Source of the DNA: Escherichia coli
GTDB lineage: Bacteria > Pseudomonadota > Gammaproteobacteria > Enterobacterales > Enterobacteriaceae
Length of the DNA stretch: 64,000 nt
NCBI RefSeq assembly: GCF_041248615.1
Contig: NZ_CP158426.1
Strand: one strand, 5' to 3'
The notes under the pieces were generated by a model. The model did no database searches, was not told where the DNA came from, and worked only from the letters and a program-made list of their open reading frames with translations. A program made the position numbers and the translations under genes. Each line of letters begins with the position of its first letter. Positions within the stretch are counted from its first letter, which is position 1. This document shows positions 1,153 through 42,191 of this stretch, one piece after another.

Positions 1153-1336
1153 GTGATATGTATGAAGTACTTTGGAAGTATAAATCCATAACTTGTCTCG
1201 ATGTAGATATACTGCACAACTTGTTTACAGTATGAGCAAACAATAATTATCATTAAAATTCTTCTTGACCGTTTTACTCCAACTCCCTATAGTAGCGCCC
1301 CGTTGCCACCCATGAGGTTTGGCAGCAAAACAATTT

Positions 1337-1424
1337 GGTGAGGTGTCCGAGTGGCTGAAGGAGCACGCCTGGAAAGTGTGTATACGGCAACGTATCGGGG
1401 GTTCGAATCCCCCCCTCACCGCCA
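1337..1424 (+). tRNA. serW: tRNA-Ser (GGA anticodon)
   Basis: 88-nt sequence GGTGAGGTGTCCGAGTGGCTGAAGGAGCACGCCTGGAAAGTGTGTATACGGCAACGTATCGGGGGTTCGAATCCCCCCCTCACCGCCA with long variable arm and CCA end; sits between infA and clpA as in K-12. Confidence 0.9.
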
Positions 1425-2003
1425 TATTTAAAGAAAAGCTCGTACGAAAGTGCGAGCTTTTTTTTTCGCATATTGCACTCCAGGGGGGATGAGAAGCCCC
1501 GACCGGGGTTCGACAACTGGCGCAGCCAGTTGGACAGACCACGAACACAGTGAGTGGGCTGCCCGCAGGGCGAGCGAAGCGAGTCAATCCCCCCCTCACC
1601 GCCATATTCAAAGAAGAGCTCGTACGAAAGTGCGAGCTTTTTTTTCGCATATTGCACTCCAGGGGGGATGAGAAGCCCCGACCGGGGTTCGACAACTGGC
1701 GCAGCCAGTTGGACAGACCACGAACACAGTGAGTGGGCTGCCCGCAGGGCGAGCGAAGCGAGTCTATCCCCCCCTCACCGCCATATTTAAAGAAAAGCTC
1801 GTACGAAAGTGCGAGCTTTTTTTTCGCATATTGCACTCCAGGGGGGATGAGAAGCCCCGACCGGGGTTCGACAACTGGCGCAGCCAGTTGGACAGACCAC
1901 GAACGCAGTGAGTGGGCTGCCCGCAGGGCGAGCGAAGCGAGTCTATCCCCCCCTCACCGCCATATTCAAAGAAGAGCTCGTACGAAAGTACGAGTTTTTT
2001 TTC
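1425..2003. repeat. Tandem direct repeat, three ~179-bp units, each with a terminator hairpin and a copy of the serW 3' end
   Basis: ...CCCCCCCTCACCGCCA recurs ending at 1424, 1604, 1783 and 1962; units near-identical with a few substitutions. Confidence 0.85.
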
Positions 2004-2242
2004 GCATTTTATCTGCCTGTACGGCAGTAAACGGTATAAAAATCGGGTTTTTCTTTCGGCTGGCTTTCTAAGCTGCCTGTACGGCAGTGAACTCAAATAC
2101 TACACGTCTAGCCCGTTGTTAATAAAGCAAAACCATCTCATTTTCCTGCTACCACCCTTTTTTATCCTTACCTTCCCGCAGCACTAATTATCAACAACTT
2201 ACCATCATCATCAAAAAAAGGGTCTGAACCTCCTCCACCCCA

Positions 2243-2305: not shown

Positions 2306-4582
2306 TTAATGCGCTGCTTCCGCCTTGTGCTTTTGTGCACTCTGGAATCCATAAGTCAGCTCATTTTTCTCTTTATCCAGCGCAACCGTCACCTGACCGC
2401 CGTCCACCAGCGAACCAAACAACAGTTCGTTGGCGAGCGGTTTTTTCAGGTTGTCCTGGATGACACGCGCCATCGGACGTGCGCCCATTGCCCGGTCGTA
2501 ACCTTTCTCGGCCAGCCAGTTACGCGCTTCCTGGCTCACTTCCAGAGAAACACCTTTCTGATCCAACTGAACCTGCAACTCGACGATGAATTTATCCACT
2601 ACCTGATGGATCACGTCGGTTGACAGATGATCGAACCAGATAATGTTGTCGAGACGGTTACGAAACTCCGGCGTAAAGATCTTCTTGATCTCTTCCATCG
2701 CATCGGTGCTGTTGTCCTGGTGGATAAGACCAATCGATTTACGCTCAGTTTCTCGTACCCCAGCGTTGGTGGTCATCACCAATACCACGTTACGGAAGTC
2801 CGCTTTGCGTCCGTTGTTATCGGTCAGCGTACCGTTGTCCATCACCTGCAACAGAATATTGAACACGTCCGGGTGCGCTTTCTCGATTTCGTCCAGCAGC
2901 AGCACCGCATGTGGATGCTTGATGACCGCATCAGTCAGCAAACCGCCCTGATCAAAACCAACGTATCCCGGAGGCGCACCAATCAGACGGCTGACGGTAT
3001 GGCGTTCCATATACTCGGACATATCAAAGCGCAGAAGCTCAATGCCCAAAGCTTTCGAAAGCTGTACCGTCACCTCTGTTTTCCCGACCCCGGTAGGGCC
3101 GGCAAACAGGAACGAACCGACCGGTTTATGTTCGTGACCTAAACCTGCACGCGCCATCTTAATGGCTTCAGTCAGCGCCTCGATGGCTTTATCCTGACCG
3201 AAGACCAGCATTTTCAGGCGATCGCCGAGGTTTTTCAGGGTATCGCGGTCACTCTGAGAAACACTCTTCTCTGGAATGCGCGCAATACGGGCCACCACGG
3301 ACTCAATATCCGCCACATTAACGGTTTTCTTGCGTTTGCTTACCGGCATCAGGCGTGCGCGAGCGCCCGCTTCGTCGATAACGTCAATGGCTTTATCCGG
3401 CAGATGACGATCGTTAATGTATTTCACCGCCAGCTCTACCGCTGCACGCACCGCTTTTGCGGTATAACGCACGTCGTGGTGCGCTTCATACTTCGGTTTC
3501 AGGCCATTGATGATTTGAACAGTTTCTTCGATCGACGGTTCAGTAATATCAATTTTCTGGAAGCGACGCGCCAGAGCACGGTCTTTCTCGAAAATGTTGC
3601 TGAACTCCTGATAGGTTGTCGAACCAATTACGCGAATTTTACCGCTGGAGAGCAACGGTTTGATTAGGTTAGCCGCATCGACCTGACCACCAGACGCTGC
3701 ACCCGCACCGATAATGGTGTGGATCTCATCAATAAACAGGATGCTGTTAGTGTCCTGCTCCAGCTGCTTGAGCAACGCTTTAAAACGTTTTTCAAAGTCG
3801 CCGCGATATTTTGTGCCCGCTAACAGAGAACCGATATCGAGAGAGTAAATCGTACAGTCAGCCATCACTTCCGGCACATCGCCCTGAACAATTCGCCAGG
3901 CAAGACCTTCTGCAATCGCGGTTTTACCGACACCAGATTCCCCCACCAGCAGCGGGTTGTTTTTACGGCGACGGCAGAGAACCTGAATAGCACGCTCCAG
4001 CTCCTTCTCACGACCAATCAGTGGGTCGATTCCGCCCACGCGCGCAAGCTGATTCAGGTTCGTCGTGAAATTCTCCATACGTTCCTCCCCACCAGCTTGT
4101 TCTTCGCTGTTTGGCTGGCTGCCAGGATCAGAAGACTGTGTCGGCTCGTCTTTACGCGTGCCATGAGAGATAAAGTTCACCACATCGAGACGGCTGACTT
4201 CATGTTTACGCAACAGATATGCCGCCTGCGACTCCTGTTCGCTAAAGATAGCGACCAGAACGTTTGCACCGGTAACCTCATTGCGACCGGAGGACTGGAC
4301 ATGGAAGACCGCACGTTGCAGTACACGCTGAAAACTCAGCGTTGGCTGTGTGTCGCGCTCCTCTTCACTGGCAGGCAGAACGGGTGTGGTTTGTTCAATA
4401 AAGGCTTCCAGTTCCTGACGGAGCGCAACCAAATCCACAGAACACGCTTCCAGCGCCTCCCGGGCAGATGGGTTACTGAGCAGCGCCAGTAACAAGTGCT
4501 CGACGGTCATAAACTCATGACGGTGCTCGCGCGCTCTGGCGAAAGCCATATTTAAACTGAGTTCCAGTTCTTGATTGAGCAT
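2306..4582 (-). CDS. clpA: ATP-dependent Clp protease ATP-binding subunit ClpA
   Basis: ORF 2306-4597; start placed at [24 protein letters not shown] (recalled ClpA N-terminus); two AAA+ modules with Walker motifs. Confidence 0.95.
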
Positions 4583-4612
4583 AGGCACCTCCCCCAATTT
4601 TTATGCCTGCAT

Positions 4613-42032: not shown

Positions 42033-42111
42033 GCCACTGCTTTTCTTTGATGTCCCCATTTTGTGGAGCCCATCAACCCCGCCATTTCGGTTCAAGGTTG
42101 GTGGGTTTTTT
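42033..42111 (+). ncRNA. rybB: RybB small RNA (sigma-E-dependent)
   Basis: GCCACTGCTTTTCTTTGATGTCCCCATTTTGTGGAGCCCATCAACCCCGCCATTTCGGTTCAAGGTTGGTGGGTTTTTT matches recalled RybB nearly base for base; lies downstream of ybjL as in K-12. Confidence 0.8.
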
Positions 42112-42191
42112 GTTGCCTGAAATTTATGCCTTTTAAAATCATGATATTAGAAGCACTGTTTTTTAACGATGGCGACAAAATGGCGGCAGCG

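What the first reader, a model, noticed from the sequence alone, without database searches (positions are those of the whole stretch)
1425..2003. Tandem ~179-bp repeats after serW, each regenerating the tRNA 3' end and a terminator
The serW 3' terminus, its terminator hairpin (aaagctcgtacgaaagtgcgagcttttttt) and ~120 bp of spacer are repeated head-to-tail three more times with only a few substitutions; the tRNA 3' end recurs ending at 1424, 1604, 1783 and 1962. Arrays of tRNA 3'-end copies are what repeated integration and excision at a tRNA attB site, or tandem amplification, would leave. The repeats also create spurious tandem ORFs on both strands (for example 1550-1732 and 1729-1911).
Basis: seen in the sequence. 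Interest (0 to 1): 0.45.

Follow-up and report, generated by a model that had tools for sequence, protein, structure and literature searches.

The report
tRNA-linked RtT repeats after serW
The three-and-a-bit 179-bp repeats after the serine tRNA gene serW are a real but ordinary array of tRNA-linked repeats (RtT family), known in E. coli since 1978, still without a known function, and not scars of island integration.

Summary
Downstream of serW (tRNA-Ser GGA, 1337-1424) lies a 179-bp unit repeated 3.4 times (1406-2007, 97% identical). Each unit holds the last 18 nt of the tRNA, a strong terminator hairpin and about 114 bp of body.

The body is a member of the RtT / tRNA-linked repeat (TLR) family. 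It scores 45.1, 44.0 and 43.9 bits against Rfam RF00391 (gathering score 45). It scores 91-95 bits against a model I built only from non-E. coli relatives.

E. coli K-12 carries a parallel 181-bp x3.4 array after serX, the identical paralogue of serW, and has an exactly empty serW site. The strain of this window is the reverse: three units at serW and only a truncated remnant at serX.

About 14% of complete E. coli genomes have at least one unit at serW (1, 2 or 3 seen). Six other independent assemblies carry the identical three-unit segment, and RefSeq already labels it "RtT sRNA".

Relatives follow tRNA-Tyr, tRNA-Ser(GGA) and tRNA-Ser(GCT) across Enterobacterales and Pseudoalteromonas, with a conserved fold. 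I found no phage or integrase signal.

Copy number most likely changes by unequal recombination. Function is unknown. Low interest.

The parts
1265..1293 (+). serW promoter (TTGACC, 17-nt spacer, TATAGT). It is the only promoter-like site that could drive the array; none lies inside the units.
   Evidence: Promoter scan. The same upstream sequence is present in K-12 serW and in Citrobacter sp. Cu233 serW.
1337..1424 (+). serW, tRNA-Ser(GGA), intact. Its last 18 nt (1407-1424) form the first copy of the repeated tRNA end.
   Evidence: ARAGORN; Rfam tRNA 53.8 bits; repeat family D2.
1425..1604 (+). Unit 1. It holds the terminator hairpin 1430-1465, a spacer, and the RtT-like element 1478-1604 ending in the tRNA-end copy 1587-1604 (...CACCGCCA).
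   Evidence: TRF; repeats; Rfam RtT 45.1 bits at 1468-1604; own model R1 94.8 bits; hairpin -21.2 kcal/mol.
1605..1783 (+). Unit 2. It holds the terminator hairpin 1610-1645 and the RtT-like element 1657-1783 ending in the tRNA-end copy 1766-1783.
   Evidence: Rfam RtT 44.0 bits; R1 91.7 bits; hairpin -21.4 kcal/mol.
1784..1962 (+). Unit 3. It holds the terminator hairpin 1789-1824 and the RtT-like element 1836-1962 ending in the tRNA-end copy 1945-1962.
   Evidence: Rfam RtT 43.9 bits; R1 91.4 bits.
1963..2012 (+). Terminal partial copy. It holds only the terminator hairpin (1969-2002, slightly diverged: GTACGAGT) and ...TTTTCGCAT, where the repeat ends and unique sequence begins. This corresponds to the single copy present at the empty K-12 site.
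   Evidence: Alignment A2 with the K-12 empty site; terminator scan; fold -18.2 kcal/mol.

Best explanation
This is an array of tRNA-linked repeats (TLRs) of the RtT type, attached to serW.

Anatomy. Each 179-bp unit has three parts:
- a terminator hairpin;
- a short spacer;
- a structured element of about 127 nt whose 3' end is a copy of the last 18 nt of tRNA-Ser (from the T loop to CCA).
The 5' arm of that element (GGGGGGAT) is complementary to the copied tRNA end. An internal hairpin (GAAGCCCC-GACC-GGGGTTC) repeats the tRNA's T-stem and T-loop sequence.

Dynamics (inferred). The array grows and shrinks by unequal homologous recombination or replication slippage between the 65-179-bp direct repeats. 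Complete collapse leaves exactly one tRNA end plus terminator, which is the state seen at K-12 serW.

History (shown). The serW array is an old lineage, paralogous to the serX array. It is not a recent copy of the serX array and not a by-product of island integration.

Expression (inferred by analogy with tyrT rtT RNA). Any transcript comes from the serW promoter by read-through of the strong terminators. It would be trimmed by the tRNA 3'-end machinery to RNAs ending at the CCA copies (1604, 1783, 1962).

Function. No function is known for tRNA-operon TLRs. The array is dispensable at this locus, since about 86% of complete E. coli genomes lack it there.
For: Family membership:
- The units score 45.1, 44.0 and 43.9 bits against Rfam RtT.
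- A covariance model built only from 58 non-E. coli units scores the three window units at 94.8, 91.7 and 91.4 bits (E about 1e-22). It finds nothing else in the window.

Parallel array. K-12 serX, an identical tRNA, is followed by a 181-bp x3.4 array with the same layout and a body 93% identical. K-12 tyrT/tyrV has a 178-bp x3.1 array plus one spacer unit, at 133-137 bits.

Empty site. At K-12 serW the tRNA end, terminator and CGCAT occur once and are followed directly by the CRISPR remnant. The gap is shorter by 538 bp, which is 3 x 179 + 1.

Polymorphism:
- 776 of 5,425 complete genomes carry at least one unit at serW, with spans fitting 1, 2 or 3 units.
- At least 2,101 genomes carry a serX array.
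- 3,367 genomes have at least one body copy, 1-11 per genome.
- The window's own strain, GN02461, has only a roughly 60-nt remnant at serX.

Separate lineages. Locus-specific diagnostic differences separate the serW and serX types. The empty serW site carries the serW-type terminator. An infA-linked serW orthologue in Citrobacter also has a unit.

Conserved fold. A 34-pair, 6-helix structure is 98.3% paired, against 32-52% when the partners are slid. Nine pairs show compensatory change.

Arms track the linked tRNA. This holds across Tyr, Ser(GGA), a CCCTC-type Ser, Ser(GCT) and a Pragia Tyr variant.

Annotation. RefSeq labels identical sequence 'RtT sRNA'.

Literature. TLRs were described by Egan & Landy (1978) and Rudd (1999): 22 TLRs at ten K-12 loci, 1-5 per locus, with 18-19 bp identical to the upstream RNA's 3' end and no known function (PMC8144298).
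Against: - Two of the three units fall about 1 bit below Rfam's gathering score. That model appears centred on tyrT-type sequences.
- Transcription and processing of the serW units were not tested here.
- Each unit starts with a hairpin of about -21 kcal/mol followed by a T run, so distal units may be almost silent.
- The recombination mechanism is inferred from copy-number variation and a mosaic pattern of variants, not observed.
- The compensatory changes could in principle arise from DNA-level quasipalindrome correction rather than from selection on an RNA.
- I could not read Rudd (1999), so I could not confirm that serX is one of the ten listed TLR loci.
Confidence: 0.88

Rival explanations
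1. Integration scars. Each unit would be an attR-like remnant (a displaced tRNA 3' end plus a little island DNA) left by successive integration and imprecise excision of elements that target the serW 3' end.
For: - serW and serX are real integration sites. EDL933 has an island that begins directly after the tRNA.
- The repeated tRNA fragment starts in the T loop, where many integrases cross over. That last point is from my own knowledge and was not tested here.
- The element reads like a T arm split in its loop (GGTTCGA | about 75 nt | ATCC...CCA).
Against: - There is no match to any of 50,697 phage records.
- 'Plasmid' matches to the unit body are mislabelled chromosomes, chromosome fragments or relatives in Klebsiella and Salmonella; the others cover only the terminator end.
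- No integrase or island ORF lies in the serW-clpA gap, and the ORFs have no family.
- The body is homologous between arrays linked to tyrT, serX and serW, and to arrays in Pseudoalteromonas. It has a conserved fold and compensatory changes.
- Units also repeat the terminator, which an attR scar need not do.
Confidence: 0.04
2. Functional structured RNA. The units would encode a tRNA-mimicking RNA (a stem built on the copied T-stem and first acceptor bases, followed by a single-stranded tail ending ...CCA) that acts in tRNA 3'/5' processing, as a decoy, or as a regulator. Copy number would tune the dose.
For: - The fold is conserved, with 9 compensatory pairs.
- The arms co-vary with the linked tRNA in at least 4 independent contexts.
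- The family is conserved from Enterobacterales to Pseudoalteromonas.
- The annotated 3' end of K-12 rttR coincides with the CCA copy.
- Related TLRs in rrn operons are expressed and bind Hfq and CsrA (PMC8144298).
- RtT RNAs are detected in Klebsiella transcriptomes (PMC4147364).
Against: - Presence is polymorphic at both loci. This strain lacks the serX array and K-12 lacks the serW array.
- A strong terminator precedes every unit, and no internal promoter was found.
- The only published phenotype for rtT was retracted.
- tRNA-operon TLRs scored below 0.01 as CsrA binders.
Confidence: 0.25
3. Assembly artefact. The repeat number would be wrong because a repeat collapsed or expanded during assembly.
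For: Tandem 179-bp repeats are a classic problem for short-read assembly.
Against: The 1,227-bp infA-clpA segment is 100% identical in six complete genomes (GN02461, 4621, MS 69-1, 755, OX030728, LT599825). It is 99.8% identical in a seventh, TUM1226. Other strains have clean 1- and 2-unit versions.
Confidence: 0.02
4. Protein-coding tandem repeat. The overlapping 60-aa ORFs, including a tpr-like ORF at 1489-1671, would encode small basic proteins.
For: - ORFs exist on both strands.
- K-12 annotates tpr, a 'protamine-like protein', in the homologous tyrT repeat. It starts at the conserved ATGAGAAG.
- Some RefSeq genomes call a hypothetical protein here.
Against: - There are no Pfam or NCBIfam hits.
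- The first base of the 'start codon' varies A/G/T/C across genera.
- The serW and serX types differ by a 1-nt indel inside the ORF, and the unit periods are 177, 179 and 181.
- The invariant nucleotides show no wobble pattern, and variation elsewhere is compensatory in stems.
Confidence: 0.02

Closest known systems
serX tRNA-linked repeat array of E. coli K-12 MG1655 (NC_000913.3, about 1,096,960-1,097,585)
   Same: - The upstream tRNA-Ser(GGA) is identical.
- The unit layout is the same: tRNA end, terminator, spacer, RtT-like body.
- It has 3.4 copies.
- The body is 93% identical.

   Different: - It lies at a different chromosomal locus (next to ghrA rather than infA/clpA).
- Its period is 181 bp, not 179.
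- It has locus-specific substitutions in the terminator, spacer and one stem.
- In the window's strain this locus holds only a truncated remnant.
RtT / rtT RNA repeats of the tyrT-tyrV operon (Rfam RF00391; Egan & Landy 1978; Bosl & Kersten 1991)
   Same: - It is a tandem repeat of about 178 bp downstream of a class II tRNA.
- Each unit ends in the tRNA's last 18-19 nt.
- It shares the core GATGAGAAsC..CGACy..GGTTCGA ... CCCGnAGGG ... AT-CC.
- It has the same outer stem and inner hairpin.

   Different: - The arms are re-tuned to the tRNA-Ser T stem (GGGGGG/CCCCCC rather than GGAAGG/CCTTCC).
- The central hairpins differ and are longer.
- The Ser-type unit carries an intrinsic terminator after every tRNA end, which I did not see in the tyrT units.
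- The Rfam score is only about 45 bits, against about 135 bits for tyrT units.
rrA/rrB/rrF tRNA-linked repeats downstream of 5S rRNA in rrnA, rrnB and rrnD (PMC8144298)
   Same: - They belong to the same TLR class.
- The element sits between two terminators.
- It ends in an 18-bp copy of the upstream RNA's 3' end.
- It is expressed by terminator read-through.

   Different: - The body sequence is unrelated.
- There is a single copy per operon.
- Hfq and CsrA binding has been shown in vitro. tRNA-operon TLRs were predicted not to bind CsrA.
attL/attR direct repeats of islands integrated at serW/serX (for example the EDL933 island after serW)
   Same: They duplicate the tRNA 3' end at the same genes.
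   Different: - They flank tens of kilobases of island DNA that includes an integrase.
- They are not tandem.
- They have no conserved structured body.
- The unit has no phage or island homology.

Membership tests
tRNA-linked repeats (TLR; Egan & Landy 1978, Rudd 1999, as summarised in PMC8144298) | Lies immediately downstream of a tRNA or rRNA gene, in the same orientation and operon. | tested here: met
   The array starts inside serW (1406) and runs co-directionally to 2007.
tRNA-linked repeats (TLR) | The 18-19 bp at the 3' end of each repeat are identical to the 3' end of the upstream tRNA. | tested here: met
   The 18-nt sequence ATCCCCCCCTCACCGCCA recurs, ending at 1604, 1783 and 1962.
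tRNA-linked repeats (TLR) | One to five copies per locus. | tested here: met
   There are three full units plus a partial one. Other strains have 0-3 at this locus.
tRNA-linked repeats (TLR) | Co-transcribed with the tRNA and released by processing. | not testable with these tools
   Only the serW promoter was found, and there is a terminator before each unit. No expression data are available here.
Rfam RtT (RF00391) | Bit score at or above the curated gathering score of 45. | tested here: inconclusive
   Unit 1 scores 45.1 and passes. Units 2 and 3 score 44.0 and 43.9, just below. RefSeq annotates one RtT sRNA on identical sequence.
Rfam RtT (RF00391) | Shared core sequence and consensus fold (outer stem closing on the tRNA-end copy, plus an inner GAA.Cnn/nnG.TTC hairpin). 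| tested here: met
   - All three units align over the full model, positions 1-130.
- The independent model R1 scores them 91-95 bits.
- Structure counts support the fold.
Rfam RtT (RF00391) | Derived from the tyrT operon. | tested here: not met
   The array is linked to tRNA-Ser(GGA), not tRNA-Tyr. It belongs to a Ser-linked subgroup that also occurs at K-12 serX and in many genera.
tRNA-gene integration scars (attL/attR remnants) | An integrase or island gene remnants next to the repeats. | tested here: not met
   The serW-clpA gap holds only the array and a CRISPR remnant. The ORFs have no protein family.
tRNA-gene integration scars (attL/attR remnants) | The sequence between tRNA-end copies is related to phage or island att-flanking DNA. 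| tested here: not met
   There is no match in 50,697 phage records in sensitive mode. Plasmid-collection matches to the unit body are mislabelled chromosomes, chromosome fragments or relatives in Klebsiella and Salmonella; the others cover only the terminator end.
Protein-coding repeat (tpr-like) | A conserved reading frame and a protein-family signal. | tested here: not met
   - A 1-nt indel separates the serW and serX types.
- The first base of the start codon varies.
- There are no Pfam or NCBIfam hits.

The most novel reading that the evidence does not exclude
RtT/TLR units may not be inert duplications. They may be a conserved tRNA-derived module that is rebuilt or selected to match its host tRNA.

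In every context sampled, three segments carry the T-stem sequence of the tRNA immediately upstream:
- the 5' arm;
- the inner hairpin;
- the 3' end.
The contexts were tRNA-Tyr, two tRNA-Ser(GGA) T-stem variants, tRNA-Ser(GCT) in Pseudoalteromonas, and a single-base Tyr variant in Pragia. All the linked tRNAs are class II (long variable arm).

This would mean one of two things:
- a functional tRNA-mimic RNA, such as a processing decoy or a dosage device, whose dose is set by a rapidly varying copy number;
- a copy mechanism that templates both arms from the tRNA.

The reciprocal presence and absence at serW and serX between strains could then reflect compensation rather than drift.
Probability: 0.2. 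Interest if true: 0.5.

Novelty: already known. Interest (0 to 1): 0.15.

Why it matters
For annotation, the region should be labelled as three RtT/TLR units, not as ORFs or island scars. Rfam's threshold misses two of the three units because the model seems centred on tyrT.

For biology, the result is ordinary. TLRs were described in 1978 and catalogued in 1999, and K-12 has the twin array at serX.

Three side results may be useful to anyone who takes up the still-open question of what tRNA-operon TLRs do:
- the serW and serX arrays are strongly copy-number polymorphic and can be reciprocally present or absent;
- the Ser-linked units have a well-supported six-helix fold;
- the arms of the element track the T arm of the linked tRNA across distant genera.

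If TLRs turn out to have a function, natural 0/1/2/3-copy alleles at serW provide ready-made test strains.

Tried and rejected
- **Phage search.** A sensitive search with a whole unit found no match, so I dropped an attP-flank origin.
- **Plasmid search.** There were 40 records. Those matching the unit body are mislabelled chromosomes, chromosome fragments or relatives in Klebsiella and Salmonella; the rest match only its first ~50 nt (the terminator end). None gives evidence that the element is mobile.
- **Promoter scan.** No promoter-like site lies inside the units. The same scan listed only the last terminator copy. The T run of the others is absorbed into the stem, so I folded the hairpins directly instead.
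- **Recent copy from serX.** Rejected. The two types have fixed locus-specific differences, the empty serW site carries the serW-type terminator, and this strain has no serX array to copy from.
- **Coding potential.** Pfam and NCBIfam scans of four ORFs were empty. Two earlier calls failed on a frame error of mine.
- **Apparent links to tRNA-Thr(TGT) and tRNA-Ser(TGA).** These were artefacts of my linking rule. The nearest upstream tRNA is Tyr or Ser(GCT).
- **Literature.** Bosl & Kersten (1991), PMC329039, is not held in the library. I could not read Rudd (1999), so the list of the ten K-12 TLR loci was not checked. A mobilome preprint found raised coverage of the tyrT-rttR region under stress but attributed such RNA-gene signals to RNA/DNA hybrids rather than circular DNA.
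- **Copy-number distribution.** I could not compute an exact distribution over all 5,426 genomes, because the search tool lists at most 60 rows. The figures given are counts by query coverage plus samples.

Full report
**1. Where the window comes from**

The window is E. coli. Its first 7 kb read aat, infA (865-1083), tRNA-Ser(GGA) (1337-1424, + strand), an 881-bp gap, then clpA (2306-4597, - strand) and clpS. The segment 1084-2310 is 100% identical to strain GN02461, where the same genes are annotated. The tRNA between infA and clpA is serW, as in K-12 and as named in PMC12736100.

**2.

- Tandem Repeats Finder gives one array at 1406-2007: period 179, 3.4 copies, 97% matches, no indels, score 1132.
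- A 59-nt block (18 nt of tRNA 3' end, then a hairpin and T run) occurs at 1407, 1587, 1766 and 1945. The body of about 186 nt occurs three times at 98-100% identity.
- The hairpins are very stable (-21.2, -21.4 and -18.2 kcal/mol; z about -5.5).
- The array is three full units plus a terminal copy of only the tRNA end and terminator.
- It is not an assembly artefact. Five other complete genomes besides GN02461 carry the 1,227-bp infA-clpA segment at 100% identity, and one more at 99.8%. Other strains show clean one-unit and two-unit versions.

**3. What the units are**

- Rfam's RtT family (RF00391) aligns end to end with each unit at 45.1, 44.0 and 43.9 bits. The gathering score is 45. At the curated threshold only unit 1 is reported.
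- The classical RtT repeats of K-12 tyrT-tyrV score 133-137 bits and form a 178-bp x3.1 array plus one unit between the two tRNA genes.
- To test membership independently of Rfam and of E. coli, I scanned one genome per species for the shared core TGAGAASCNNCGACYNNGGTTCG.
- From these I extracted 117 distinct units and aligned 58 non-E. coli representatives (A1). I then built a covariance model, R1.
- R1 scores the three window units at 94.8, 91.7 and 91.4 bits (E about 1e-22). This is close to K-12 serX units (81-90 bits) and below tyrT units (121-127 bits). R1 finds nothing else in the 64-kb window.
- RefSeq already annotates "RtT sRNA" on identical or near-identical serW arrays in other strains.

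**4. The twin array in K-12**

- A body-only query (window 1470-1586) matched 3,367 of 5,426 complete E. coli genomes, at 1-11 places per genome. These included K-12 derivatives at about 1.097 Mb, with 93% identity.
- That locus is serX, the identical paralogue of serW. In MG1655 it is followed by a 181-bp x3.4 array with the same layout: tRNA end, terminator, spacer, RtT-like body.
- K-12's serW site is exactly empty. The tRNA end, terminator and ...TTTTCGCAT occur once and then run into the CRISPR remnant. The gap is 538 bp shorter, which is 3 x 179 + 1.
- The window's own strain is the mirror image. At serX it has the tRNA, one terminator and about 60 nt of a degenerate, truncated body abutting dgcT.

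**5. Population picture**

- 776 of 5,425 genomes (about 14%) cover at least 80% of the serW query. That requires at least one unit. Spans of about 867, 1,049 and 1,222-1,227 bp correspond to 1, 2 and 3 units.
- Most genomes show the 689-bp empty site. A few have IS1 or IS200C inside the array.
- At serX, at least 2,101 genomes carry an array. Many others have only the remnant, with a span of 437 bp.
- So the arrays are not fixed. They vary in whole units at both loci.

**6. Relationship of the two loci**

- Alignment A2 shows fixed locus-specific differences:
  - terminator GTGCGAGC against GTACGGGC;
  - spacer CGCATATTGCACTCCA against CGTATATTGCACACACC;
  - GGCG-CAG against GGCGACAG;
  - a stem CCAC/GTGG against CCGT/GCGG.
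- The empty K-12 serW site has the serW-type terminator. The GN02461 serX remnant has the serX-type spacer.
- In other genera most Ser(GGA)-linked arrays are next to ghrA, which is the serX position.
- Citrobacter sp. Cu233 has a unit after the infA-linked serW orthologue, with the same promoter sequence.
- The serW array is therefore an old paralogous lineage that most E. coli have lost, not a recent copy from serX.
- Within the window the junction blocks alternate (TTT..GAAAAG, TTC..GAAGAG, TTT..GAAAAG, TTC..GAAGAG), while the body variants form a different mosaic. I read this as a history of unequal exchange. This is inference.

**7. Anatomy and conservation of the family**

- In the sampled genomes the motif follows tRNA-Tyr(GTA) 97 times, tRNA-Ser(GGA) 68 times and tRNA-Ser(GCT) in Pseudoalteromonas 10 times. 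The remaining hits lie at contig edges.
- Apparent links to Thr(TGT) and Ser(TGA) were artefacts of my linking rule.
- In some genera the units sit inside thrU-tyrU-[units]-glyT-thrT.
- Arrays have 1-5 units.
- Three segments of each unit follow the T arm of the linked tRNA:

| Linked tRNA | 5' arm | Inner hairpin | 3' end |
|---|---|---|---|
| Tyr | GGGGAAGGAT | CTTCGACCAAGGTTCGA | ATCCTTCCCC |
| Ser(GGA) | GGGGGGAT | CCCCGACCGGGGTTCGA | ATCCCCCCC |
| Ser, CCCTC type | GGGAGGGT | CCCTCGACCAGGGTTCGA | ATCCCTCCC |
| Ser(GCT) | GAAGGAGGGT | CCCTCGACCAGGGTTCGA | ATCCCTCCTTC |

- Pragia's Tyr variant changes both the 5' arm and the 3' end together (GGAGAAGG with CCTTCTCC).
- RNAalifold on A1 recovers the outer stem and inner hairpin, with 19-21 sequences changed on both sides.
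- For 29 Ser-type units (A3) a 34-pair, six-helix structure is 98.3% paired, against 32-52% when the partners are slid by 1-3 columns. Nine pairs show compensatory change, against 0-3 in the slid controls.
- The unit can be read as a T arm split in its loop (GGTTCGA, about 75 nt, ATCC...CCA). This is a description, not a demonstrated origin.

**8. The integration-scar idea**

- serW is a genuine island site. EDL933 has an island starting right after the tRNA.
- However, the unit has no match in the phage collection.
- The plasmid-collection matches to the unit body are mislabelled chromosomes, chromosome fragments or relatives in Klebsiella and Salmonella; the others cover only the terminator end.
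- No integrase or island remnant lies in the gap, and the ORFs have no protein family.
- The body is a conserved structured element shared with tyrT arrays and with distant genera.

**9. How it most likely works**

Shown:
- the anatomy of the units;
- family membership;
- copy-number polymorphism;
- the conserved fold;
- the absence of internal promoter-like sites.

Inferred:
- Copy number changes by unequal recombination or slippage between 65-179-bp repeats. Full collapse gives the K-12 state.
- Transcripts arise from the serW promoter (1265-1293) by read-through of the terminators. They would be trimmed to the CCA copies, as for tyrT rtT RNA. The annotated 3' end of K-12 rttR coincides with the CCA copy.

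Function is unknown. According to PMC8144298, TLRs were first described by Egan & Landy (1978). Rudd (1999) listed 22 at ten K-12 loci. The one reported phenotype for rtT RNA was retracted in 1994. tRNA-operon TLRs have no known function, whereas three rrn-linked TLRs bind Hfq and CsrA in vitro. Dispensability at serW is clear from the population data.

**10. Verdict**

This is a correct observation of a known kind of element at a locus where the reference strain happens to have none. It is already annotated in RefSeq. I rate it low interest (0.15) and "already known". The conserved fold, and the way the arms track the linked tRNA, keep open a modest chance (about 0.2) that these elements have a function or an unusual copy mechanism worth testing.

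Noticed in passing
window 2005-2092 (- strand): An orphan type I-F CRISPR remnant (CRISPR4.1-2 of the clpA-infA locus). It has two repeats (50.1 and 26.4 bits to CRISPR-DR4) and one 32-nt spacer at 2033-2064. It starts 5 nt after the last terminator copy. K-12 has a different spacer at the same position.
   Followed up: partly
L126 41760-41862 (strain GN02461, serX locus): The window's own strain has no serX array. It has only the terminator and a degenerate, truncated RtT body of about 60 nt that runs into the end of dgcT. K-12 is the reverse: an array at serX and an empty serW site.
   Followed up: yes
window 1407-2003: The four junction blocks alternate between two variants (TTT..GAAAAG and TTC..GAAGAG), while the body variants (ACACAG/ACGCAG, GTCA/GTCT) follow a different pattern. 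The result is a mosaic suggestive of unequal exchange.
   Followed up: partly
window 1489-1671 and L003 1588-1677: The conserved RtT core ATGAGAAG is the start of K-12 tpr ('protamine-like protein'). The window has the equivalent 60-codon ORF in each unit. Across genera the first base is A, G, T or C, and 1-nt indels break the frame, which casts doubt on tpr-like ORFs as genes.
   Followed up: partly
L006, L054, L056, L073, L082, L107, L119 (Pseudoalteromonas): RtT-like units follow tRNA-Ser(GCT) in Pseudoalteromonas, with arms matching that tRNA. In L056, L073 and L119 a terminator follows each tRNA-end copy. L073 and L056 also have runs of shorter repeats (about 85 nt) that hold only the terminator and a decayed tRNA end.
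   Followed up: partly
L015, L088, L095: In Acerihabitans arboris (L015) and two other genomes whose names the scan listing cut off (L088, L095), RtT units lie inside the thrU-tyrU-glyT-thrT operon, between tyrU and glyT. The last unit is truncated against the next tRNA's leader.
   Followed up: no
H5 and H147, serW arrays of other E. coli strains: IS1 and IS200C insertions are annotated within or next to the serW array in some strains.
   Followed up: no
L127 4342-8349 (EDL933): In O157:H7 EDL933 an island begins directly after serW. It carries a DUF4942 gene, CbtA/YeeU toxin-antitoxin genes and an IS3 element. The match to the window stops 7 nt past the tRNA end, and no RtT unit lies between the tRNA and the island.
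   Followed up: partly
L046 5140-5215 (Citrobacter sp. Cu233): The infA-linked serW orthologue has a duplicated terminator segment (ctcgtacgtaagtacgggcttttttttcgcat, twice) before its single RtT unit, and a REP-like palindrome after it.
   Followed up: no
window 42036-42114 (+): RybB sRNA, 104 bits. It is the only other Rfam family above threshold in the window.
   Followed up: no
L034, L050, L089, L091, L105: Several genomes from the species scan (L034 is Enterobacteriaceae bacterium RIT691, L050 Enterobacter cloacae) have two tRNA-Ser(GGA) genes 3-6 kb apart near ghrA, each with its own RtT array.
   Followed up: no
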